Source: the human T2T-CHM13v2.0 reference genome, Homo sapiens
NCBI RefSeq assembly: GCF_009914755.1
Contig: NC_060926.1
Strand: one strand, 5' to 3'
Length of the DNA: 64,000 nt
Positions 2,500-19,983 of the stretch are shown here, one piece after another. Below the pieces are notes generated by a model. That model made no database searches, was not told where the DNA came from, and saw only the letters and a list, made by a program, of their open reading frames with translations. The position numbers and the translations under genes were made by a program. Numbering within the stretch: position 1 is the stretch's first letter; each line of letters begins with the position of its first letter.

Positions 2500-4020
<1,521 letters not shown>

Positions 4021-4025
4021 AAGGG

Positions 4026-6012
4026 AAATTTTGGGAGTAATATCACCTCTCCCCATGTGGTTATTAAGGACAAAATGCCAGGGTGGCTGTACAGTTCCTA
4101 CGTTGTTGGCAGTAATATCATCCACTCACCCTCTGGATATGAGGAACCACATCACAGAAGAGGTGTACACCCCCTTCGATATTGTCAGCAATGTCATCCT
4201 CTTCCCTCCTGGATATTAGGAACAATACCCCGGGGTTGGGGGCAGTGTATACCCACTGCGATATGGAAAGTAATATCAGCCTCTTTCCCACTGGATATTA
4301 GGAACTATATCACGTGTGTGTGTGCACCTTCTGGGATATTGGGAGTAATATCAGCTTCTACCCCGCTGCATATTAGGAACAATATACGGGGGGCGGGGAG
4401 GGTTACACCCCCTGCGATATTGAGCGTAATATTATTCTCTTTTCCCTGTGCATTAGGAACTATATCACAGGGGTCTGTACACCTTCTGCGATATTGGGAT
4501 TAACGTTATCCTCTCCCTCATTGAATATCAAAAACAATATCACAGAAGGGTGTACACCCCCTGTGATATGGCCAGTAATATCATCGTCTCTACCTTTAAA
4601 TACTAGGAACAACATCACAGAGGGTGTCTACACCCCCTGCGATATTGGGCATAATGTTATCCTCTCTTCCCCTGGTTATTAGGAACAGTATCCCTGGTGG
4701 GGGGAGGTGGAGTACATTAAGAACATCACTGGGTGGGTGTACACCCTCTGCGATATTGGGTGTATTATCCTCTGTTTCCCAGGATATTAAGAACAATATC
4801 ACAGGAGGGGTGTACAGCCCCTGCGTTTTTGGGAGTAATAGCATCCTCTCCCCCTCTCGATACAAGGAACAATATCCCAGGGTGGGTGTACATCCCCTGC
4901 GCTACTGGGCGTAATGTCATCGTCTCCCAACGTGGATATTGGGAATAATGTCACAGGGGGGTGTTCACCGTCTTCGATATTAGGAGTAATATCATCCTCT
5001 CCCCTCAGGATTGTAGGCAAAATATCGAAAGGGTTTTACAACTAGTGCGATATTGGCAGTAATATCATCCTCCTCCAACCTAGATATTAGGAACTTTATC
5101 ACAGGTGGCTGTACACTTCTTGCCATATTGGGAGTAATATCATCCTCTCCCATCATGGATATTAAGAACAATATTACAAAGGAGGTGTACACCCCCTGCA
5201 ATATTGAGAGTAATATTATGCTCTCCCCTTCGGGATATCAGGAACAATATCGCAGGAGGTGTGTACAACCCCTGTGATATTGGGAGTAATATCATCCTCT
5301 CCCCCTGAATAGAAGAAACAATATCACAGGAGGATGTACACCCCCTGCCATATTGGGAGTCCTATCGTTTTCTCCCCCTCTGGATATTCGGAACAATATC
5401 ACGGTGGGTGTGTACACCCCCTGCGATATTGCCGCTAGTTGTTTCATCGTCTCCCTCCCAGCATATCCCCAGCATATCAGGAACAATATCACAAGGGGGT
5501 GTACACCCCCTGCGATATTGGGGGTAATATCTTCCTCTCCGCCACTGGCTATTGGGAACAATGTCACAGAAGGGGTGTACACCCCCGGCTCTATTGGGAG
5601 TGATATCATTCTCTCTGTCCCTGGATATTAGGAACAATGTCGCTAGGGAATGTACACCTCCTGCAATAGGGAGACTGATATCATCCTCTCGCCCCCTGGA
5701 TATTAGGAACAATATCACAGGGTTGGTGTACACCCCCTGCGAAATCGGAAGAAATATCACCCTCTCCACCTTTGGATGTTAGGGACAATATCACGGGGAG
5801 GTCTACGCCCCTGGGATATTGGGAGTCGTATCATCCTCTCCCACCCAGGATATTAGGAACAAGATGACGGAAGGGATGTACACCCACTGCGATATTCTCA
5901 ATAATGTCATCCTCTACCCCCTGGCTATTAGGAATAACATCATAGAGGGGTGTACACTTTCTGCGCTATTGGGAGTAACATCATCCTCTCCCCCCCGGAT
6001 ATCAGGAACAAT
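4026..6012 (+). repeat. SATR1/SATR2-like ~75-bp satellite, left arm (~26-27 monomers)
   Basis: Tandem diverged monomers, consensus approx. GATATTGGGAGTAATATCATCCTCTCCCCCCTGGATATTAGGAACAATATCACAGGGGGGTGTACACCCCCTGC. Confidence 0.9.
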
Positions 6013-6740
6013 TATATTATTATTAATATTAATAGACATAATAAAAATTAATAGTATTCATCGATATTAATAATTACAATAAAGATAGTAATTAATCCGA
6101 TATCAGGAACAATTATATTATTAATATTAATAGACATAATAAAAATTAATAGTATTCATCGATATTAATAATTACAATAAAGATAGTAATCCTGGTTAAA
6201 AATATTAACCATTAGTATTAATAATTAATAGTAATATCACTATTAATAAAATGATGATACCGGTAATTAATGTTACTTAAATCAATAATAAGTCATCAAA
6301 ATAATTTGATAAATTATTAATAAATTAATTTTCAATATATTTTTAATAAAATTTTATATAAGTATAAATAATTAATGTTTATTAATTATTTATAAATAAT
6401 TAATGTTTATTAATTATTTATAAATAATTAATATTTATCAATTATTAATAAATATTATAATTAAAAATATGAATTATACTATATAATATATTATATATTA
6501 TTGATTTATAAATAATTAATATTCATTAATTATTAAGGGATAATAATTAATAAATTAATAAATTAATTAAGATTAATAACTGATATTACTGATAAATGAC
6601 ATTAATATCAATAATTAATTTTAATCGTGCATGATCGTATATTTAAAATAATTATCGATATTTAATAATGTTACACTATTAATATTAACGTTGATAATTA
6701 CTACTAAAATTGATAACTGGTGTTTAATAATTGATACTAT
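6013..6740. repeat. Extremely AT-rich low-complexity core between the inverted satellite arms
   Basis: Almost only A/T with many ATTAAT/AATATT dyads. Contains a ~95-bp duplication and a 28-bp x3 tandem repeat. Confidence 0.92.
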
Positions 6741-9357
6741 TATTACTCCTAATACCGCAGGGGGTGTACACCAACCTGTGATATTGTTCCTAATATCCAG
6801 GGACGGAGAGCATGATTTTTAGTTTTAATATCGCAGTAGGTGTGCATTCACCCTGTGACATTGATCCTAATATCCAGGGGGTAGAGTATGACATGACTCC
6901 CAACATAGCAATGAATGTACAGCCACCCGGTGATACTGCTCCTAATATTCACGGAAGAAGCGTATGCTATTATTCCCAATATAGCAGGGAGTGTACACCT
7001 CTTCTGTGATATTGTTCCTAGTATCCGGAGGGGGAGAGGATGATAATAATTCCAGTATCGCAGGCTGTGTTCACCCGCCCTGTGATATTGTTATTAATAT
7101 CCTGGAAGGGAGAGGATGATATTACTCCCCATAGAACAGGAGGTGTACATCCACCGTGGGTTATTGTTCCTAATCTCCATGGAGGGGAGAGGCTGATATT
7201 ACTCCCAATATGGCAGGGGGTGTACATCCACCCTGTGATATTGTTCTTAATATTCAAAGGCCGAGAGGTTGATATTACTCCCAATATCGCAGAAAGTGTA
7301 CACTCCCGTGTGATACTGTTCCTGATATCCAGAAAGGGAGAAGATGATATTCATCCCCACATCGCAGGAGGTGAACACCCACTCTGTGATATCTTTCCTA
7401 ATATGCAAGGGGAGAGAGGATAATATTATTCCCAATACTGCAGAAGATGTACACGCCCCCCCCCCCGCCCCGTGATATTGTCCTTAATATCCTTCTCTGC
7501 CCCAGGCAGAGAAGATGATATCGCAGAAAGTGTACACCCTCCAGTGATACTGTGACCATGATCCAGAAGGGAAGAGGATGATACTACTTTCAATGTCGCA
7601 GGGGGTGTACACGCCCCCAGTGATAATGTTCCTAATTTCCACGTGGGAGAGGCTGAGTTTACTCCCAATATCGCAGGGGTTATATACACTCCTTCGATAT
7701 TGTTCCTAATATCGGGGGGGAGGAGAGGATGATATTCCTCCCTGTATTGTAGAGGGTGTACATCCGTCTTTGATATTGTTCGTAATTTCTAGACGGGGAG
7801 ATGACATTACTCACAAAATCGTAAACATGCTGTGTGTCCAACGTGGATCCTAATCCAGGGAGGGATATTATTCCCCATATCGCGGGGGTTGTCCACCCCT
7901 CCTGTCATATTGTTTCTTATGTCCAGGGAGGAGAGGATGATATTGCTACCAATATCGAAGAAGTGTACACGCCCCCTGTGATATGGTTCCTAATATCCAC
8001 GTTGGGAGAGGATGATATTACTCTCGATATCACAGGGGTTGTACACCCCGCCTGTGAATTTTTCCTACTATCCAGAATAAGAGAGAATGATATTATTCCG
8101 AATAGTGCAGGGGGAGCACTCCCCACCCCCCATGGGATATTGTTCTCAAGAGCTAAAGGAAGAGAAGATCATATTACTCTTTGTACTGCAGGGGGTGTAC
8201 ACCCACCTGTGATACTGTTCCTGTTATCCAGGGAGCGAGAGCATGATATTACCCCCAATATCGCCGTGGGTGTTCACCCACTTTGTGATATTGCTCCTAA
8301 TATCCATGGGGTAGTGTATGACATTACTCCCAATATAACAGTGGGTGTACATTCACCCGGCGATATTGCTCCTAATATTCAGGGAAGGCGAAAATGATAT
8401 TACTCCCCAAATCGCAGACAGTGTACAACCCTTCTGTGATATTGCTCCTAATATCCGGAGGGGGAGAGGACGATATTACTTTCAATATCGCAGGTTGTGT
8501 ACACCCACCCTGCGATATTGTTCCTACAATCCAGGAAGGGAGAGGACGGTTTTGCTTTCCATAGAGTAGGAGGTGTACACCCACGCTAGGATTTTGTTCC
8601 TAATATCAAGGTGGGGAGAGCGTAATATTACTCCCAATATGGCAGGGGGTGTACATCCCCCCTGAGATATTGTTCTTGCCATTCAAAACAGGAGAGGATG
8701 ACATTACTCCAGATATCGAAGAAAGTGTGATATTGTTTCTAATATCCAGAAAGGAAGAAAAGGATATTAATTCCCGTATCGCAGGAGGTGTACACTCACT
8801 CTGATATTTTTCGAAATATGCAGGGGGGAAAGAGGATAATAGTATTCCCAATATCGCAAGGGTTGTACACCCCCGTGTGAGACGATGGTCCTTAATAATA
8901 TCCCAAGGCGGAGGGGATGATATTACCACATATATCGCAGAAAGTGTACACCCCCCAGGGATATAATTTCCATGATCCTGGAGGGAAGATGATATTACTT
9001 TAAATATCACAGAAGGTGTACACGCCCCCCGTGATATTGTTTCTAATTTCAACGTGGGAGAGCAGGATATGACACACAATATCGCAGGGAGTAGAACCAC
9101 TCCTGTGATACTGTTCTTAATATTCAGGGAGGAAGAGGATGATATTGCTCTCAATACAGAGGGGTGTACACCCTCTGTACAACGAGGGTGTACACCCGTC
9201 TGTGAAATAGTTCATAATTTCCAGAGGGAGAGATGATATTACTCACAACATCGTAAACAGGCAGTGAGTCCACCATGGCTCCTAAGAGCCAGGGGGGGAG
9301 AGGGGGTGGCTCTTAGTCCCCGCATCGCGGGGGGTGCCTCACCCTCCTGCGTTGTGG
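6741..9357 (-). repeat. SATR1/SATR2-like ~75-bp satellite, right arm (~34-35 monomers), inverted relative to left arm
   Basis: Monomers read GTGATATTGTTCCTAATATCCAGGGGGAGAGGATGATATTACTCCCAATATCGCAGGGGGTGTACACCC, the reverse complement of the left-arm unit. Confidence 0.9.
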
Positions 9358-11899
9358 ATTTTATTTTGTTAGTTGTTTTTTATGCGTAATTGAGGCAAAA
9401 TAGAACAAAGTGTTGAGACTTAATTCAATCTCTTTTTTTTAATGAAGGAGCTCACAGGTTGTTGGTGGAATGACTGACCTATGTCAAACGTTTATCGTTT
9501 ATTTTATCATGCCCATCCATAACTGAGAATATAATGGGCAAAAATAAGGTTATTTATTGATATAGGTGAAATAACTCAATGAAACCCCCCATACAAATTG
9601 ACATTTTTTCTTAATTATGCTGAAGAATATAGCTAACAAAACACTGCTCAGAATTTTTTGTATTAGGAAGCTCCAAGTCAGTTTGTATCTCTTGAGCCAT
9701 AAGCAGTGAAGTTAAATTTACCTTAACTTGTGATTCAAAAACAACAGAAATCTCTAGCTTATTGAGTTTTAGAAATACAATTCAACAGTGAAACAGCAGA
9801 TTCTTTCATTTTGTATTTATGTAGACTGTCATCCCAGGTCATTATAAAATAACAATTTTATTTATTTATGCTATTATTTTTATTTGCCTTGATTATTATT
9901 GTTTAGAAATGTGATTTTTATTTTTCCCCGAAGTTCATATCTAATGTCTTTTTTTTTCTGCCTACACAAATCAGTTGCAACTTCTTAGTCATAAACTATA
10001 CCTCTGATTTTGGTGATTGCTGTGTGCATGGTGTCAGACTCCTCACAAGAGGGTTCTCAATGAACAATGCGTCATGACAGCTTATCAGCTCAATAGGAAA
10101 GAAAACAAATAGGCACAATACAGGTTTTTAAACTGTATTGAACAGGCTTTAATACTGAGTTATTATGAAACAAACGCCTCATTTTATTTACCAGGAAATT
10201 AGATAAGAAATGTCAAACAGGTAGCTTGTCTTCTAGCATGATTTGTATCAATGCATTTTATCTGAAATGAGCAAAACTCCTTCCTGTGTATTGTATATTT
10301 TCATTATGGTGTTGATTTTTCTAACATTTTAAAATCTTGTTTCTAAACAACACAACCCCACTGTTAATAAGGATATTGTGCAAAAGATAGTAAATTCAGT
10401 AGGTTTAATATTCTTTATGATTAGTGCTGCCCAGTTTTGCTCCTAAGATAAACTTAAATCTAGTCATTTGATGCCAAACATCAATAAGATGATATTCAGA
10501 TAGGTACAGCTGAAGTATACAATTCATGCAGTAAAGGAGATTACTAAATTACTAAGGGAAGCAGGTAGATACGTATAAGTTAGACCCAGTCTTCCTTGTA
10601 TATATTTCATTTAGTGATATGTGAAGAGAACGTAGTAATCCATGCTGTCAGTCATATATCTAAATTTACTAATGTGATGTATATAAAGCCATCAAAAATG
10701 CTTTAAATGACAGAAAATACTTCCCAAATGGAACACAGATAATTCCTTCCAGCACAACATCCTTTTGAGAAGCATCTTGCACCAGCATCCCTCCAATATC
10801 AGGATATTAATTCAAATGCCATAGCAGAAAAAAATGCAAATTTTAGAAGTGGATCTCAAAGCTTCGTGCACTTCCTAGACACTGACTGCACATTTTTCTA
10901 TGCATTTGCTTGTGTTTGGTACTTAATTTGTGTTGTCTCTTTTCCCATACCACACATGAAAATTATATCCACCATTAAAAAAGATAAAGAAGATTTTATC
11001 TAGATAAATAAGACCAAGGAAATGCTGCTTTGGGTTTATAGATTAGATATGGATGCCAAAATTGGAGGTTGCAAGAGACAAGAAGAGAGACAACGTATAG
11101 ATAACAACTCAGTCAAAATGAAAGGTTTCCAGATATACACTACACATGACAGTGATGGCAGTTCCACAAAGGCTTCAACAATTCAGATTTGTCATCTCAG
11201 TGTATCTTCAATGTAGTGTAGCTTTTGTTCTTGTGTTCTAAGATGAAAAGGAGTAAGAATGCTATGCCTCCTTACTTCAAAAAGAATTCCCAGGAGTAAC
11301 ACTAAAGGATGTATAGGTAAATGTTTATTTCAAAATTTATTGTATGATTGGTACTTACTGTTTACTTAATGTTTATATTGACATCTCTAGTTCTGAAAAG
11401 ATAAATGATTGCAAGTTTATTTGCTAATAAATAGTGTCATTTGTAATTTCTTTTTCTCTTACATTCAAGGAGTTAAAATGAAACCTAGGACTCTACTGTA
11501 ATGCTTATTGAGAGATACTGTCTCTTTAAAGGAGACTACTTTGGGTCCCTGGTGTAATGTATTTAGAAGAAAATATTTATCAATACAAAACTTGTTTTTG
11601 TTCTAACTCCCCTCTCAAATAAAACAATTTTTTCAGGCTGAATAGAATAAAATAACATTGGCAATGGCAAAGACGTGGCGAAACTGCTCTAAAAGATTGT
11701 CAGAGAGCCTTGTTTCTCTAATTGAATTCAGATAGCCTCACTTTATTATATCTTACTCCAGATACAGCAAAAGCTCAGAGATAGAATGCCTTGTCATTAC
11801 TCTGGATCTATAAGACAATGGTTCAGGAAAGCATTTGAAGATTGGCTTTTTCTATCAGTGAAACTTACGCATAGTGTAGCAGATAGAGTTTGCAAACTA

Positions 11900-12440
11900 T
11901 ATAGCGGTATTGATCTTGTGCAAGATCATGAAAGGGATGATTTGTGAGTCACCTAAAAAACTGGTGATGCAGAATGAGAAAAAGAAGTAAAGAATTAAAA
12001 ATAGTAAAAATGACATGTTTGAAGATCAATATCTGGAAAGATATTTAGTATATTCCAGGAACTGAAAAATACGATTGTGGATCTAGCCTAGAAAATAAGT
12101 GGGAGAGTAGCATGAGATGTATGAGAGAGGTAGAATTGACCAGCAATGATTCTGTGTATCTTAATTACAAAGGGAAACCACGAAAAATTTTCAGCAGAGA
12201 AACGTTAAGATTAAAGCTGCTTTTTTTTACAAAGGAAACTTACTTGCTGCAATATGAAGAAACTATTAGAAGGAATGTATTTGTAAAACAGGAGATCCAT
12301 TAGAAAGATATTGCAGGGTTCAGGTAGATAATGCAGGCAGTAATGGTAACATTGGAGGTAAGTGGTTGGATTGAAAAGGGAAACAGGCAGTGGAATCATA
12401 GGCCATGGGACTTAAACGCATTTGGGTGTGAGGGAGAGAG
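11900..12440 (-). mobile_element. L2 LINE fragment
   Basis: Purine-rich degenerate sequence resembling the reverse strand of the L2 3' half. Confidence 0.45.
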
Positions 12441-12449
12441 GGCTGTCGA

Positions 12450-15010
12450 TCACTTTTCTAAGCTACACAAACTGTCCTTCTCTCTAACCTTTGTCATTAT
12501 CCTTGTTGATTTCAATATCTACATGAGAAATTCATGCAATGCTTGAAATCATGACAAGTTTGACCTTATTTCCAATGAACTTTGCCCAGTTTTAGCAAAT
12601 AAGTATCACAGTTACACCCTAGACTTTAACATTCACACCAAACTGATGGTAATGTAAAACTAATAATAATAGAACTCCGCTCTCTGCATGCCACTTCTGA
12701 GAGTTATCCTCCCCATCAAGGCTTCTGGTTTATTGGCATACATAGTCATGATTATATATTAACTTCTTATATCTTTCATTTTACATACTTTATCTAGTCC
12801 ATCATTTCAATAATTTTCTAATCAATATCAAAAGGTTTTGTGCCCCTCTGTAAATTCCTTGCCCTCTTCTGTTATTCTGGATCCACTCAACTGTTAATTT
12901 ATTCATACTTTACTTGGGCCTCTATAATCCACTGGGTCTTGTAAGTTTTTGGCCATTTCAGACTTGATCTTCTATTTTACATAGGCCTTAACATTGCTAA
13001 GAAAATATTCAATGTTTTCTTAATTGGGTTTTTCATTACCCCCAACATTTATTTTAGAATTTCACAATTTTTCTCAAATCTCCTACTCCATAATCTCTCC
13101 AATTATAGTTGCCCCTCTTTAGGGGTGGGTTCCCCATTTATGGATTCAGCCAATCATGGATCAAAAATATTTGGAAAGAAAACAACAGTAAAACCATATA
13201 AATAATACAAGTTAAAGAAAATAAAAAACATTCAAACCTGTCTTTATCTTTTTATAGTTAGGTTCATTCTAGTTCAAGTTATCACCATTTCTCACTGACA
13301 TAGCACTTACATTGTATTAGGTATTGTAAGTAATCTAGAGATGTTATAAAGATAGGGGATAATGTGCATAGGTCATATGCAAATACCACGCCATTTTCTA
13401 GAAGAGACTTGAGCATCTGAGGATTTTGGTATTCATGAGGGTCCTGGAACCCATCACCCCTGAATTAGGAGGGATGGCTGTATAGAAGCAGCAAAATTCA
13501 CAGAAGAAATAGAATGTGTCAAACTAAAACTGGAAGACTTCCACTATTAAATAAAATAGCTAAACACATCTACATCCGTTTCCTCCTCCCTGGTCCTTAT
13601 TATTTTAGATTTGGTGGGCTCTTCTTGTCAAACACTAGGTAGCCTCTTCCTTTCAGAGACTAGTCCCTCTTCTTTGTCACATCTGTTCCTAACTTCTCAG
13701 TTACCATTTCATATTAATTAACACTTACTCTTTATAATCTGCAACTTCTGCTCCTGTGTTGACTCCTACAACCATCATACAGACAAAGCAAATGTTTTTC
13801 CTTCACTGCCATTTATTTATTCAACTAAAGTTCTACATGTGCCTTCAATTACCTTTTCAAAATATTTCCTGTATTTTCTGCTTTTCTTCACCTCTCACTC
13901 ATTTTTAAGCTGACTTCATTCTGGCCTTGATTACTGCAAAAACTCCTATTATTTCATACTTTTCCATTTTCTTCCTAGATATCAGGACATATATTCCCTC
14001 TTTGACTACATTGCTGGCTCTTTTATCACTACTCAGCACTCTTCAACACACAGAAACCTTCCTTTTTTCTCATATGATACTTTTCCAAAGTTATTCATCC
14101 ACGCTCATGTCTTTAAATGCCATATATACACCCTGAAAGTCTGATTTTAAATATTATTTATATGGCCATGATGCACATATCCATTTTCAAACTATTCCCT
14201 GTGCTGCTGTTGGTCCCTCTTCCCATTCAACAATCCCACTTTATAACTCAAAGAGAGCTAAGATATATCACGTCCAATACGTATTTCATAACATTCTCCA
14301 CTTCACCTGATTCCCATTCACATTCTCCTCCTCTCCATACTTAGATACATCGCCATTTTCTTATTTTGAACTTTGCCTTCTGAAAGCTTGAGTTGACACT
14401 TCCCATTTCCTCAATCCCTACAACCAATCCATTATCAAATACTCCTGATTTTATATTAAAAAATATCCAAACATATATTTATCTTTTTATTGTTGTATTT
14501 ATTATAAATCAATCACCATTTCTTATATATCATTAAGAACATTAAACCCTCTCTCCCTACACCTAAAACCCCTCAATTGTTTCAATTCATGATTAGTGTA
14601 AACATGTAATTTTTTAATTAATCTATTATCCCTTTTTAAAATTTATTTGGTATCTCTCCCTTCTGTTCTAACTGGCTTATTTTCACCATCTATTTAGTTT
14701 TCAATGCCTCCTCCTCCATCAGGATCTGCCTGCAGTTTTCCTACTCCCTTCCCGTGGACATGCTAGGGGAGTTTTCTCTGACATGGCCAGAGTTGGTTAG
14801 AAGCACTATCTTGCATAGAATAGCATCCACTTTTAAAATTTGCATCCCAATTGTTACTTGCAAATGTGTGTAATTGGCAAGTTAATACTTTCTCTGTATA
14901 TTAAACTATAAGTTTCATGAGAGAAGTGTCCCAGAATATTTTGACCATCACCATTACACTTATTGTTTGATGTTCCATAAACCTTTATGAAACAAATGAG
15001 GAACGGGCAG
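12450..15010 (+). mobile_element. L2 LINE, long degenerate ORF2/3' remnant (interrupted by MER2)
   Basis: Translation IILVDFNIY (ORF 12331-12546) resembles the APE endonuclease IILGDFNIH motif. Pyrimidine-rich L2-like sequence follows. Confidence 0.6.
13106..13481 (-). mobile_element. MER2-like TcMar-Tigger non-autonomous DNA transposon
   Basis: GTATTAGGTATTGTAAGTAATCTAGAGATG...GGGTCCTGGAACC...GAGGGATGGCTG-TA, flanked by TA. Confidence 0.8.
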
Positions 15011-18789: not shown

Positions 18790-19342
18790 TGTTACTGGAA
18801 AGGGCTCCCGATCCAGACCCCACGAGAGGGTTCTTGGATCTCATACAAGAAAGAATTCAGAGCAAGTCCATAGATTAAAGAGAAAGCAAGTTTATTAAGA
18901 AAGTAAAGGAATAAAAGAACGGCTACTCCATATGCAGAGCAACCCCAACGGCTGCCGATTGCCCATTTTTATGGTTATTTCTTGATGATATGCTAAACGA
19001 GGGGTGGATTATTTATGCCTTTCCTTTTTAGACCATATAGGGTAACTTCCTGATGTTGTCATGGCATTTGCAAACTGTCATGGCGCTGGTGAGAGCGTAG
19101 CAGTGAGGATGACCAGAAGTCACTCTCATTGACATCTTAGTTTTGATGGATTTAAGCAGGCTTCTTTACTGCATGCTATTTTATCAGCAAGGTTCTTATG
19201 ACCTGTATCTTGTGCTGACCTCCTATCTCATCCCATGATTTAGAATGCCTAACCTACTGGGAATGCAGCCCAGCAAGTCTCAGCCTTATTTTACCCAGCC
19301 CCTATTTAAGATGAAGTTGCTCTGGTTCAAACGCCTCTGACA
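18790..19342 (-). mobile_element. MER41A-like ERV1 solo LTR
   Basis: Minus strand starts TGTCAGAGGCGTTTGAACCAGAGCAACT. TG...CA ends and a perfect 4-bp TSD CATG at 18786-18789 and 19343-19346. Confidence 0.92.
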
Positions 19343-19983
19343 CATGTGTTTGCTGAAACTTAAAAAAAAAAAAATGAAATGCTACGGGTATGTTACCAGG
19401 CTGACAAATTTCTGTGGCAGGATATATTTTAGGAGTGTGTGGATGACCCATAGATGTGTCTGTGATAGACAGGAAGAGGAAGGGAAAAGAAACAGAAGAA
19501 ATTACAGAATCCGATTTCATCTCCTCACCCTCTCCACTTCTCCACCTCCTCCACCAGCAGTCCCTCAGTGGAGGAGAGTCTGGAGAAACGTGTTCAATCT
19601 AAACTCTTCAGCATTTGTTTTATGTATTATAATGAACACACCAGGTAAGAACATTGTTCTTGACAATTACTATTTGAAGTCTATCTAAAGTAGTAACAGG
19701 ATACAGAAACAGATAGATGAAACAAGTAGAGGACTGTGTAAATGGTGGAAATAGCCTATACAATTAACTGGTAGAATAAGGCATTCTTCTTTTTCTACAT
19801 GTTCATACCAGTACTGCTCCTATGTTTACAGATAATGGTTGTGAAAAAATGCTTACTTAAAATTTTGATCTATTCTGGACTAGAATTTAAAAAGATAATA
19901 TTTCAGATATAACGCTGCATTTGAATAGTTAAACTTGTCAATCAATGGCAGAAGGCACAGACATTTGAGAAAAAATGTAATGG

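What the first reader, a model, noticed from the sequence alone, without database searches (positions are those of the whole stretch)
4026..9357. 5.3-kb foldback-like unit: two inverted satellite arrays around an AT-rich palindromic core
Seen: ~2.0 kb of ~75-bp monomers on the + strand, then ~730 bp of almost pure A/T, then ~2.6 kb of the same monomer on the - strand, set among ordinary interspersed repeats. Known: the monomer matches what I recall as human SATR1/SATR2, normally annotated simply as satellite. SATR blocks have been linked to segmental-duplication and breakpoint regions. Long inverted arms built of tandem subunits around a loop is also the layout of Drosophila Foldback (FB) elements. 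Inference: this may be one organised, dispersed non-coding element (arm-core-arm) rather than three unrelated repeats. It could be a non-autonomous mobile or self-amplifying unit, or a protein-binding array plus a DNA-unwinding element, as in an origin or recombination hotspot. No transposase or other ORF is present.
Basis: partly seen in the sequence, partly recalled or inferred. Interest (0 to 1): 0.85.

Follow-up and report, generated by a model that had tools for sequence, protein, structure and literature searches.

The report
Solo copy of composite SATR1 satellite
This 5.3-kb block is one old, isolated copy of a primate satellite unit built from two opposed arrays of a 76-base repeat around a shared AT-rich spacer, a layout repeated at dozens of human sites and probably prone to folding back on itself, but with no sign of being a true jumping gene.

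Summary
Window 4027-6011 holds 26 monomers of about 76 bp on the + strand. Window 6012-6740 is 729 bp at 12.6% GC. Window 6741-9357 holds 34 monomers on the - strand. Published SATR1 primers hit only this block, so the monomer is SATR1.

This is not a one-off inversion. The AT-rich core is a homologous sequence of about 390 bp found in at least 39 places in the same assembly. In 29 of 29 other loci examined it lies between a distinguishable left arm and right arm, always in the same relative order and strand.

The arms align in register to copies on other chromosomes at 80-93%, while monomers within an arm are only about 70% alike. The whole unit was therefore copied as a block.

The copy here shares no flank with any paralogue. 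Its left end breaks in mid-monomer, and the right end closes with one GC-rich variant monomer.

It has no defined shared termini, no consistent target-site duplication and no Pfam-recognisable ORF. The core diverges faster than the arms.

A 2025 macaque T2T preprint describes the same layout. Verdict: a solo relic of a known composite satellite. The organised-unit idea is supported. The foldback-transposon and origin or hotspot ideas are not.

The parts
4027..5247 (+). Outer left arm: SATR1 monomers on the + strand. Present only in 'long-type' copies. The outer end breaks in mid-monomer.
   Evidence: HMM hits all +. Aligns in register to C2:193.09 Mb at 89% over window 4027-6091. 11 of 11 in-register paralogue hits (82-93%) start at window 4027.
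5248..6011 (+). Inner left arm: ten SATR1 monomers on the + strand next to the core. Conserved in both short-type and long-type copies.
   Evidence: Aligns at 83-90% over its full length in most of 29 loci and is always on the same strand as the core. About 17 short-type loci start exactly at 5248.
6012..6740 (+). AT-rich core (12.6% GC). It is a polar homologue of a spacer of about 390 bp shared by the family, enlarged in this copy.
   Evidence: 61 matches elsewhere at 68-89%. Multiple alignment of 30 cores gives 74-86% identity to this one. The core lies between the left and right inner arms on one strand in 29 of 29 loci.
5998..6190 (+). A 98-bp tandem duplication (two copies, 96-100% alike) spanning the last 14 nt of the left arm and the start of the core. 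Found only in this copy.
   Evidence: Other copies match the core only from query position about 88 onward.
6295..6574 (.). Expansion of 28-bp A/T repeats found only in this copy. It carries the strongest hairpin (a stem of about 25 bp).
   Evidence: This stretch falls in alignment columns that the other 29 cores lack.
6741..7443 (-). Inner right arm: SATR1 monomers on the - strand next to the core. Distinguishable from the left arm.
   Evidence: 80-93% in register in 29 loci, on the same strand as the core. K2P distance 0.06-0.07 to C22:36.15 Mb and C9:117.99 Mb.
7444..9276 (-). Outer right arm: SATR1 monomers on the - strand. The last ~380 bp, together with the terminal monomer, form an end module (window 8900-9357) that is conserved in 40 scored hits.
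   Evidence: The whole right arm (6741-9357) aligns in register to C9:117.994-117.996 Mb (87%), C5:147.76 Mb (84%), C9:10.97 Mb (83%) and C13:61.16 Mb (81%). Window 8900-9357 aligns at 84-90% in 40 hits.
9277..9357 (-). Terminal GC-rich (70% GC) 81-bp variant of the monomer, in right-arm orientation. It occurs once here and as short tandem runs at the ends of paralogous units.
   Evidence: Local alignment to the reverse-complemented monomer scores 59, against a shuffle maximum of 29 (0 of 1000). Tandem copies occur at C9:117.9975, C5:147.7703, C12:30.99 and C9:77.052-77.055 Mb.

Best explanation
The block is a solo, decayed copy of a composite SATR1 satellite unit. The unit reads: left array of 76-bp monomers, a specific AT-rich spacer of about 390 bp, a right array of the same monomer in the opposite orientation, then GC-rich variant monomer(s).

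Shown: the unit already had its position-specific monomer sequence when it spread, because copies on other chromosomes match in register far better than neighbouring monomers match each other.

Shown: this copy carries no flanking DNA from any other copy. Its left end breaks in mid-monomer.

Inferred: it was seeded here as a DNA fragment of less than one period. Its closest relatives are the short tandem clusters at C22:36.15 Mb and C9:117.99 Mb. The copying was probably by break repair or template switching, not by a transposase, roughly 15-35 million years ago.

Inferred: it has drifted neutrally since then, with slippage in the AT core (the 98-bp duplication and the 28-bp repeat expansion).

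Inferred: it has no coding or sequence-constrained function. What it does is structural. When single-stranded, the opposed arms can pair, each monomer carries its own hairpin, and the AT core melts easily. Such units are therefore plausible sites of fork stalling and breakage. That would fit published reports of SATR1/SATR2 at duplication breakpoints and in hard-to-assemble palindromic satellite regions.
For: Identity. SATR1 consensus primers from the supplement of PMC3606032 hit 27 and 18 sites at up to 3 mismatches. All lie inside 4206-9130 and are strand-consistent, against a chance expectation of 0.03 and 0.00.

Organised unit. 30 of 30 core-selected loci show + monomers, then AT, then - monomers. 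29 of 29 have the left inner arm, core and right inner arm colinear on one strand, and the core is 375-416 bp in 27 of 29. Two loci found by arms alone (C18:27.08 and C11:43.33 Mb) also have left-arm and right-arm hits on one strand, with gaps of 344-448 bp.

Block copying. The left arm aligns in register at 89-90% over 1.2-2.1 kb, and the right arm at 81-89% over 1.9-2.6 kb. Monomers are only 68.6-71.8% alike. C9:117987301-117993484 is colinear with the whole unit.

No shared flank. 11 of 11 left-end hits stop at window 4027 and 40 of 40 right-end hits stop at window 9324-9363. Otherwise only the flanking Alu matches.

Age. K2P distance is 0.06-0.08 to the nearest copies, and this copy sits in a starred clade with C22 and C9:117.99.

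Neutrality. Mean p-distance is 0.122 for the core against 0.095 and 0.094 for the arms, and the core is the larger in 234 of 276 pairs.

Structure. The inner arms plus core fold at -260.3 kcal/mol with arm-to-arm pairing, against -187.5 for the three parts folded separately. Five monomers and the GC-rich end unit give fold z-scores of -1.3 to -6.3.

Literature. The macaque T2T preprint (section 7 read) describes a core unit of a GC-rich SATR1v array, inverted SATR1, an AT-rich uncharacterised repeat and forward SATR1. PMC5088589 (passages) places SATR1/SATR2 at an 8p23.1 duplication breakpoint.
Against: The seeding mechanism is inferred from the absence of transposon hallmarks, not observed. 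No empty orthologous site could be examined. Boundaries defined by where alignments to this copy stop show where this copy ends, not where the others end.

A 5-6-bp AT word (ATTTT/ATTTTG) lies within a few bases of both junctions of this copy (and by eye). It could be a target-site duplication.

At least nine loci have flanks that match no other flank. Such dispersal without flanks is transposon-like.

The fold gain has no shuffle control above 1000 nt. Structure formation in vivo, breakage and replication effects were not tested here.

The 29 loci are not independent. Several are near-identical duplicates of one another. Each genome search scored only 15-40 of 247-471 candidates, so the census is incomplete.

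Truncated copies exist, for example C4:9.76 Mb with one arm and a partial core.

The age rests on a recalled neutral rate.
Confidence: 0.68

Rival explanations
1. A non-autonomous foldback-type DNA transposon. The long inverted arms of tandem subrepeats would serve as terminal repeats and be mobilised in trans by an unknown transposase.
For: The arms are inverted, built of subrepeats and surround a loop-like core. Solo copies occur on many chromosomes, with flanks that match no other flank in at least nine loci and in this one. A 5-6-bp AT word lies near both junctions here. Single-stranded DNA is predicted to fold back.
Against: The arms are not mirror copies. Left-right monomer identity is 70.3%, equal to within-arm identity, with no diagonal at any offset. 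The left and right arms are distinct sequences with fixed polarity. Outer ends differ between copies. The left arm runs 300-700 bp further at C2:193.09, C9:117.99 and C5:147.77 Mb, and here it breaks in mid-monomer. No target-site duplication was found at 0 of 3 other loci with both ends in view. 5 of 5 ORFs of 80 aa or more lack Pfam domains. Units also occur as direct tandem periods, as a satellite does.
Confidence: 0.08
2. A functional non-coding module: a protein-binding array (monomer palindromes) flanking a DNA-unwinding element, acting as a replication origin, boundary or recombination hotspot.
For: Each monomer carries a near-palindrome of about 30 nt centred on GTGTACAC. The core is extremely AT-rich. 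Papers report ZNF141 ChIP enrichment and ZBTB24 ChIP reads on SATR1 (passages). The architecture is retained in macaque.
Against: The core diverges faster than the arms (234 of 276 pairs). Core length and content drift by slippage. Many copies are truncated. No PRDM9-type 13-mer occurs anywhere in the window. No functional element is annotated in the window (hub note). KZFP binding is typical of repeats that are silenced rather than used (general knowledge).
Confidence: 0.07
3. A passenger inside a larger segmental duplication, or a one-off local inversion of a plain satellite array.
For: Some family members do travel inside duplications. C4:8.937, C7:6.97 and C3:75.666 Mb share flanks at 93-97%, and C9:0.10 and C2:113.9 Mb at 98%. 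The Xiao/DA literature agrees.
Against: For this copy, no paralogue alignment extends past 4027 or 9363, and the flanks tested (3000-4026 and 9364-10400) match only Alu elsewhere. The same layout with a homologous core at 29 other loci excludes a local inversion.
Confidence: 0.03

Closest known systems
SATR1 satellite (Repbase/Dfam name; monomer of about 76 bp)
   Same: Primers designed on the SATR1 consensus match the monomers of both arms many times and nowhere else in the window. The arrays are tandem.
   Different: The arrays are usually annotated as plain satellite. Here the arrays are position-specific, non-homogenised sequences that form two distinct arms around a specific spacer. I could not compare directly with the Dfam consensus.
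Macaque SATR1-SATR1v 'core unit' (T2T-MMU8v2.0 preprint, 10.1101/2025.08.04.668424, section 7 read)
   Same: The order of parts is the same: GC-rich SATR1 variant, SATR1 in one orientation, an AT-rich uncharacterised repeat, then SATR1 in the other orientation. This matches GC-rich end monomer / arm / AT core / arm here.
   Different: In macaque the unit is amplified into subtelomeric arrays of megabase scale with short arms (589 and 191 bp). Here it is a single interstitial period with arms of 2.0 and 2.6 kb and only one GC-rich monomer. Homology of the human core to the macaque AT-rich repeat 'rnd6' could not be tested because no sequence was available.
Xiao/DA core duplicons with SATR-HERVE-SATR flanks (PMC2700803 and PMC5088589, passages read)
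   Same: Same satellite family. Short-type units at C4:8.9-9.8, C8:7-12.4, C3:75.4-75.7, C11:68-71.8, C12:8.4 and C7:6.97 Mb lie in those duplication families and share flanks.
   Different: This copy has no shared flank and belongs to a different, long-armed clade. It is not part of a Xiao/DA element.
Drosophila Foldback (FB) and FB-like elements such as Tetris (recalled, not read here)
   Same: Long opposed arms made of tandem subrepeats around a central loop, no coding capacity, and a link between such elements and satellite arrays.
   Different: FB arms are true inverted copies with defined ends and a fixed target-site duplication. Here the arms are not mirror copies, ends vary, and no consistent duplication is seen.
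Palindromic AT-rich repeats (PATRRs) of recurrent translocations (recalled, not read here)
   Same: An AT-rich stretch of several hundred bp with hairpin potential. The family is associated in print with rearrangement breakpoints.
   Different: PATRRs are near-perfect palindromes. This core is polar, and its halves are no more alike inverted than direct. None of the family loci found is a known PATRR site (recalled positions).

Membership tests
SATR1 satellite | Monomer sequence matches the SATR1 consensus | tested here: met
   [quoted passage not shown] All lie inside the two arms and are strand-consistent. Shuffles give 0.03 and 0.00. No direct alignment to the Dfam/Repbase consensus was possible.
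SATR1 satellite | Head-to-tail tandem arrays | tested here: met
   TRF periods of 75-76 bp. 26 + 34 consecutive HMM hits.
Composite SATR unit (as described for macaque) | Two SATR1 arrays in opposite orientation separated by an AT-rich non-SATR repeat | tested here: met
   There are no significant monomer HMM hits inside 28 of 29 other cores.
Composite SATR unit (as described for macaque) | GC-rich SATR1 variant array adjoining the unit | tested here: met
   One 81-bp monomer variant at 70% GC lies at 9277-9357. Runs of 1-5 copies bound paralogous units on both sides in direct orientation. That this is what is named SATR1v or SATR2 is assumed, not tested.
Composite SATR unit (as described for macaque) | AT-rich spacer homologous to the macaque repeat 'rnd6' | not testable with these tools
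   No macaque sequence or Dfam entry is available. bioRxiv supplements are closed.
Foldback-type transposon | Arms are inverted copies of each other (terminal inverted repeats) | tested here: not met
   Left-right monomer identity is 70.3%, against 71.8% and 68.6% within arms, with no diagonal at offsets -8 to +8. The left and right arms are separate conserved sequences.
Foldback-type transposon | Defined termini shared by copies, and a target-site duplication of fixed length | tested here: not met
   Outer ends differ between copies. Only a 5-6-bp AT word lies near both junctions here, and none was found at 3 other loci whose boundaries are fuzzy. No empty site is available.
Foldback-type transposon | Copies at unrelated sites without shared flanks | tested here: met
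   This copy. At least nine other loci have flanks that match no other flank.
PATRR-like palindrome | Near-perfect AT-rich palindrome | tested here: not met
   Canonical core, left half against the reverse-complemented right half: 77.7%. Against the direct right half: 76.7%. Inverted beats direct in 15 of 27 loci.
Xiao/DA duplicon flank (SATR-HERVE-SATR) | Embedded in the shared duplicon with common flanks | tested here: not met
   No paralogue alignment extends beyond 4027 or 9363. This copy is in a different clade from the duplicon copies.

The most novel reading that the evidence does not exclude
The composite SATR unit could be a structure-driven, self-seeding module. Its foldback-prone arms and easily melted core would provoke breaks and template switching. 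Those events would copy the unit to new sites without a transposase and would also nucleate larger duplications (Xiao/DA, macaque subtelomeres). On this reading the GC-rich end monomers and the AT-rich core might both be compositional derivatives of the same 76-bp monomer at the two kinds of arm junction.
Probability: 0.15. Interest if true: 0.75.

Novelty: new member of a known kind. Interest (0 to 1): 0.4.

Why it matters
It shows that what repeat annotation treats as plain satellite next to low-complexity AT sequence is a single polar unit with a conserved spacer. The unit is shared by dozens of human loci and, going by a recent preprint, by macaque subtelomeric arrays. That gives a concrete sequence definition: left arm, spacer of about 390 bp, right arm, GC-rich end. 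The definition can be used to annotate these loci and to date their spread. It also makes one question testable: is the link between SATR repeats and duplication breakpoints caused by the foldback architecture? For this locus itself the result is ordinary: an old, neutral, non-coding relic in a gene desert.

Tried and rejected
1. Mirror-image origin of the arms. The monomer-by-monomer matrix shows no register.

2. Core as a transition-degraded monomer array. The purine/pyrimidine pattern match is 0.625 against 0.635 for shuffles. nhmmer with filters off finds no significant monomer hit in 28 of 29 other cores. A transition-lenient alignment gives only a weak signal for the left half (5 of 300 shuffles as good) and none for the right half. 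I keep this as a lead only.

3. Core as an ancient global palindrome. The self-alignment spans positions 11-366 of 392 with a central axis. The direct-orientation control scores the same, so I rejected it as a low-complexity effect.

4. PRDM9-type 13-mer (motif recalled): 0 matches in the window.

5. Rfam: no family reaches its gathering score inside the element. The only notable hits are Alu-derived miRNA families in the flank.

6. Target-site duplications at three other loci: none found, and the boundaries are fuzzy.

7. A 10-kb right-flank search for a larger duplication was swamped by a high-copy repeat of about 555 bp. It did not even list the self-match, so it is uninformative.

C11:43.33, C15:79.57 and C18:27.08 Mb were therefore judged from search coordinates only.

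10. Literature. 'SATR1' (28 papers hold the term, 24 listed), the query 'SATR2 / SATR1v / SATR-1 / SATR satellite' (37 papers, 30 listed) and '8p23 / 4p16 / AT-rich / palindromic' (31 papers, 12 listed) gave no description of the human arm-core-arm unit in the listings or in the passages I read. bioRxiv supplements, including the macaque repeat tables, were closed.


Full report
**Observation**

Tandem Repeats Finder finds periods of 75-76 bp (and 152- and 228-bp multiples) at 4111-6012 and 6741-9173. I built a monomer HMM from the window. It gives 60 best non-overlapping hits:
- 26 on the + strand at 4062-5991;
- 34 on the - strand at 6741-9255;
- none between the arms and none against the pattern.

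A whole-window run gives no hit outside 4000-9400. Between the arms, GC drops to 4-17% in 200-bp windows, and 6012-6740 is 12.6% GC.

The monomer is SATR1. Two primers that a gibbon study designed on the SATR1 consensus (supplement file 3 of PMC3606032) match 27 and 18 times at up to 3 mismatches. All matches lie within 4206-9130, with strands that flip between the arms. Shuffles give 0.03 and 0.00.

**It is a recurring unit, not a local accident**

The window's own assembly could be searched. Contigs are numbered, and the window is C2:82522001-82586000.

The AT core alone (window 6010-6745) has 61 matches at 68-89% identity, with 40 of 247 candidates scored. These amount to about 39 cores in roughly 27 locus clusters on C2, C3, C4, C7, C9, C11, C12, C13, C14 and C22. 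A C23 (X) hit matches only the low-complexity part, and I do not count it.
- In 30 of 30 fetched loci (this one included) the core has + monomers on its low-coordinate side and - monomers on the other, whichever way the core itself points.
- I tiled the loci with six segments of this copy. The left inner arm (5248-6011) and the right inner arm (6741-7443) turn out to be different, recognisable sequences.
- In 29 of 29 other loci the left inner arm, core and right inner arm are colinear on one strand.
- The unit is therefore polar. The canonical core is 375-416 bp in 27 of 29 loci. The outliers are 294 and 524 bp, and the latter includes two extra monomers.
- These 29 loci are not independent. 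Several are near-identical duplicates.

**The arms are copied as blocks**

Monomers within and between the arms are only 68.6-71.8% alike, with no mirror register at any offset. Despite this:
- Window 4780-5995 aligns in register at 89-90% to C9:77.04, C9:117.99, C9:42.18, C9:80.49 and C2:193.09 Mb.
- The same stretch aligns at 81-83% to C14:45.95, C9:10.97, C11:43.33, C15:79.57 and C18:27.08 Mb.
- Window 4027-6091 aligns at 89.3% to C2:193.09 Mb.
- The whole right arm (6741-9357) aligns at 87%, 84%, 83% and 81% to C9:117.994, C5:147.76, C9:10.97 and C13:61.16 Mb.
- Putting the tables together, C9:117987301-117993484 is colinear with the entire unit, with about 1.2 kb extra inside its right arm.

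About 17 'short-type' loci keep only the inner 745 bp of the left arm. They start exactly at window 5248. They also keep the inner right arm plus the end module. Many of these loci lie in the 4p16 / 8p23 / 3p12 / 11q13 / 12p13 / 7p22 duplication family.

**The ends**

The last 81 bp (9277-9357, 70% GC) is a GC-shifted version of the same monomer in right-arm orientation. Its alignment score is 59 against a shuffle maximum of 29 (0 of 1000).
- At paralogues this variant forms runs of 1-5 copies on both sides of the unit, in direct orientation.
- The period is therefore: left arm, AT core, right arm, GC-rich monomers. Tandem periods exist at C9:117.98-118.00, C22:36.15-36.16, C9:77.04-77.055, C3:75.66 Mb and elsewhere.

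For this copy, 11 of 11 in-register left-end hits begin at window 4027. 40 of 40 right-end hits (84-90%) stop at window 9324-9363, and 31 of them at 9354-9363. Nothing else in 3000-4026 or 9364-10400 matches elsewhere except the Alu at about 3330-3650. This copy therefore shares no flank with any paralogue.

These stops show where this copy ends, not where the others end. At C2:193.09, C9:117.99 and C5:147.77 Mb the left arm runs 300-700 bp further and then meets GC-rich monomers. Position 4027 is in mid-monomer. The copy is thus a fragment of slightly less than one period.

**Relatives and age**

In a maximum-likelihood tree of 30 left-plus-right inner arms, this copy groups with C22:36.152 and C22:36.158 and then C9:117.991 (support 97/89 and 100/100). 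C9:10.975 joins them in a long-armed clade, apart from 25 others. K2P distances to the nearest copies are 0.062-0.079. With recalled neutral rates of 1-2.2 x 10^-9 per site per year, that is roughly 15-35 million years. This is an inference.

**How it spread**

Some members travel inside duplications. C4:8.937, C7:6.97 and C3:75.666 Mb share flanks at 93-97%, and C9:0.10 and C2:113.9 Mb at 98%. At least nine loci, plus this one, have flanks that match no other flank.

Against a transposon:
- the arms are not inverted copies of each other;
- the termini vary;
- no target-site duplication is seen at three other loci with both ends in view, and here only a 5-6-bp AT word (ATTTT/ATTTTG) lies within a few bases of both junctions;
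- the five ORFs of 80 aa or more (longest 171 aa) have no Pfam match.

I therefore favour DNA-level copying of array fragments by break repair or template switching. This step is inferred.

**The core**

This copy's core is 729 bp because it adds two things to the canonical sequence. One is a 98-bp tandem duplication across the arm-core junction (5998-6190, 96-100% alike). The other is about 240 bp of 28-bp A/T repeats that the other 29 cores lack.

The core folds better than shuffles (z -3.27, 0 of 20), but the 25-bp stem lies in the part found only in this copy. Cores are more self-complementary than dinucleotide shuffles: 0 of 200 for this one and for the canonical core, and 6 of 200 for each of two real cores. 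The canonical core aligns to its own reverse complement across positions 11-366 with a central axis.

However, the two halves are equally similar in direct orientation (76.7% against 77.7%). Inverted beats direct in only 15 of 27 loci. The 'palindrome' therefore reflects short self-complementary AT words, not a preserved mirror duplication.

The core is not a recognisable monomer array. A transition-lenient alignment gives only a weak hint for its left half. The core diverges faster than the arms: mean p-distance is 0.122 against 0.095 and 0.094, and the core is the larger in 234 of 276 pairs. There is thus no sign of constraint.

**What it can do physically**

Each monomer carries a near-palindrome of about 30 nt around GTGTACAC. 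Five monomers and the GC-rich end unit were folded as single-stranded DNA, with z-scores from -1.3 to -6.3.

As single-stranded DNA, the inner 370 nt of each arm plus the core folds at -260.3 kcal/mol, with arm-to-arm pairing in both the minimum-energy and the centroid structures. The three parts folded alone sum to -187.5 kcal/mol. No shuffle control is available at that length.

This supports a capacity to fold back. Whether that causes stalling or breakage is inference. It fits two papers:
- PMC5088589 (passages) maps an 8p23.1 duplicative-transposition breakpoint to SATR1/SATR2.
- The macaque preprint reports that palindromic satellite arrays are the main assembly obstacle.

No PRDM9-type 13-mer occurs in the window. 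Rfam gives nothing above its gathering score in the element.

**Comparison with what is known**

The macaque T2T preprint (section 7 read) describes a core unit made of a GC-rich SATR1v array, a 589-bp inverted SATR1 array, an AT-rich uncharacterised repeat, a 191-bp forward SATR1 array and one more repeat. These units are amplified at subtelomeres. The order of parts is the same as here.

The Xiao/DA papers describe SATR-HERVE-SATR flanks (passages). Other papers mention the following (passages only):
- ZNF141 ChIP enrichment on SATR1;
- ZBTB24 ChIP reads on SATR1/SATR2;
- a SATR1-derived miRNA;
- SATR1 expansion at gibbon centromeres.

In the listings and passages I saw, nobody describes the human unit as polar with a conserved spacer of about 390 bp and position-specific arms. 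Supplements I could not open may bear on this.

**Verdict**

This locus is an ordinary, ancient, solo member of a known composite satellite kind. The mobile-element and origin or hotspot readings lack support.

Noticed in passing
window 5998-6190: A 98-bp tandem duplication (two copies, 96-100% identical) that spans the last 14 nt of the left arm and the start of the core. It is absent from the 29 other cores examined. It looks like a recent slippage or duplication event at the arm-core junction.
   Followed up: partly
L031-L050: C3:75.66, C7:6.97, C7:99.19, C4:8.93, C4:9.49 Mb (maps, tiling): In the duplication-type loci a further partial unit recurs. A short AT-rich patch sits directly next to the outer right arm starting at its position 728, followed by GC-rich monomers and then a full short unit. 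This may be a deletion variant that joins the core to the mid right arm. The AT patch was not among the core hits.
   Followed up: no
L031/L032 (C2:71.05 Mb), about 12,400-12,870 of the joined 20 kb: An AT-rich stretch of about 480 bp lies between monomers of the same orientation, which is an exception to the + / AT / - rule. It did not match the core query. It may be an unrelated insertion.
   Followed up: no
L033/L034 (C2:113.9 Mb) and L049/L050 (C9:0.10 Mb): These two copies share flanking sequence at 98% in reverse orientation. This fits the known paralogy between the 9p subtelomere and the 2q fusion region (recalled).
   Followed up: partly
C12:30.99-31.00 Mb and C9:77.052-77.055 Mb (coordinates): Longer tandem runs of the GC-rich 81-bp monomer variant. 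These are probably what T2T annotation calls a SATR1 variant. No sequence was fetched.
   Followed up: no
window about 18790-19344: A repeat of about 555 bp with very many genomic copies at 85-88% identity. It swamped the right-flank search. It was not identified.
   Followed up: no
window 3327-3650: An Alu element with a poly-A tail directly upstream of the unit. It gives the Rfam sub-threshold hits to mir-3135 and mir-1268 and hundreds of genomic matches.
   Followed up: partly
C23:149.718 Mb: Matches on both strands, but only to the 28-bp A/T repeat part of the core that is specific to this copy. This looks like low-complexity similarity rather than a family member.
   Followed up: no
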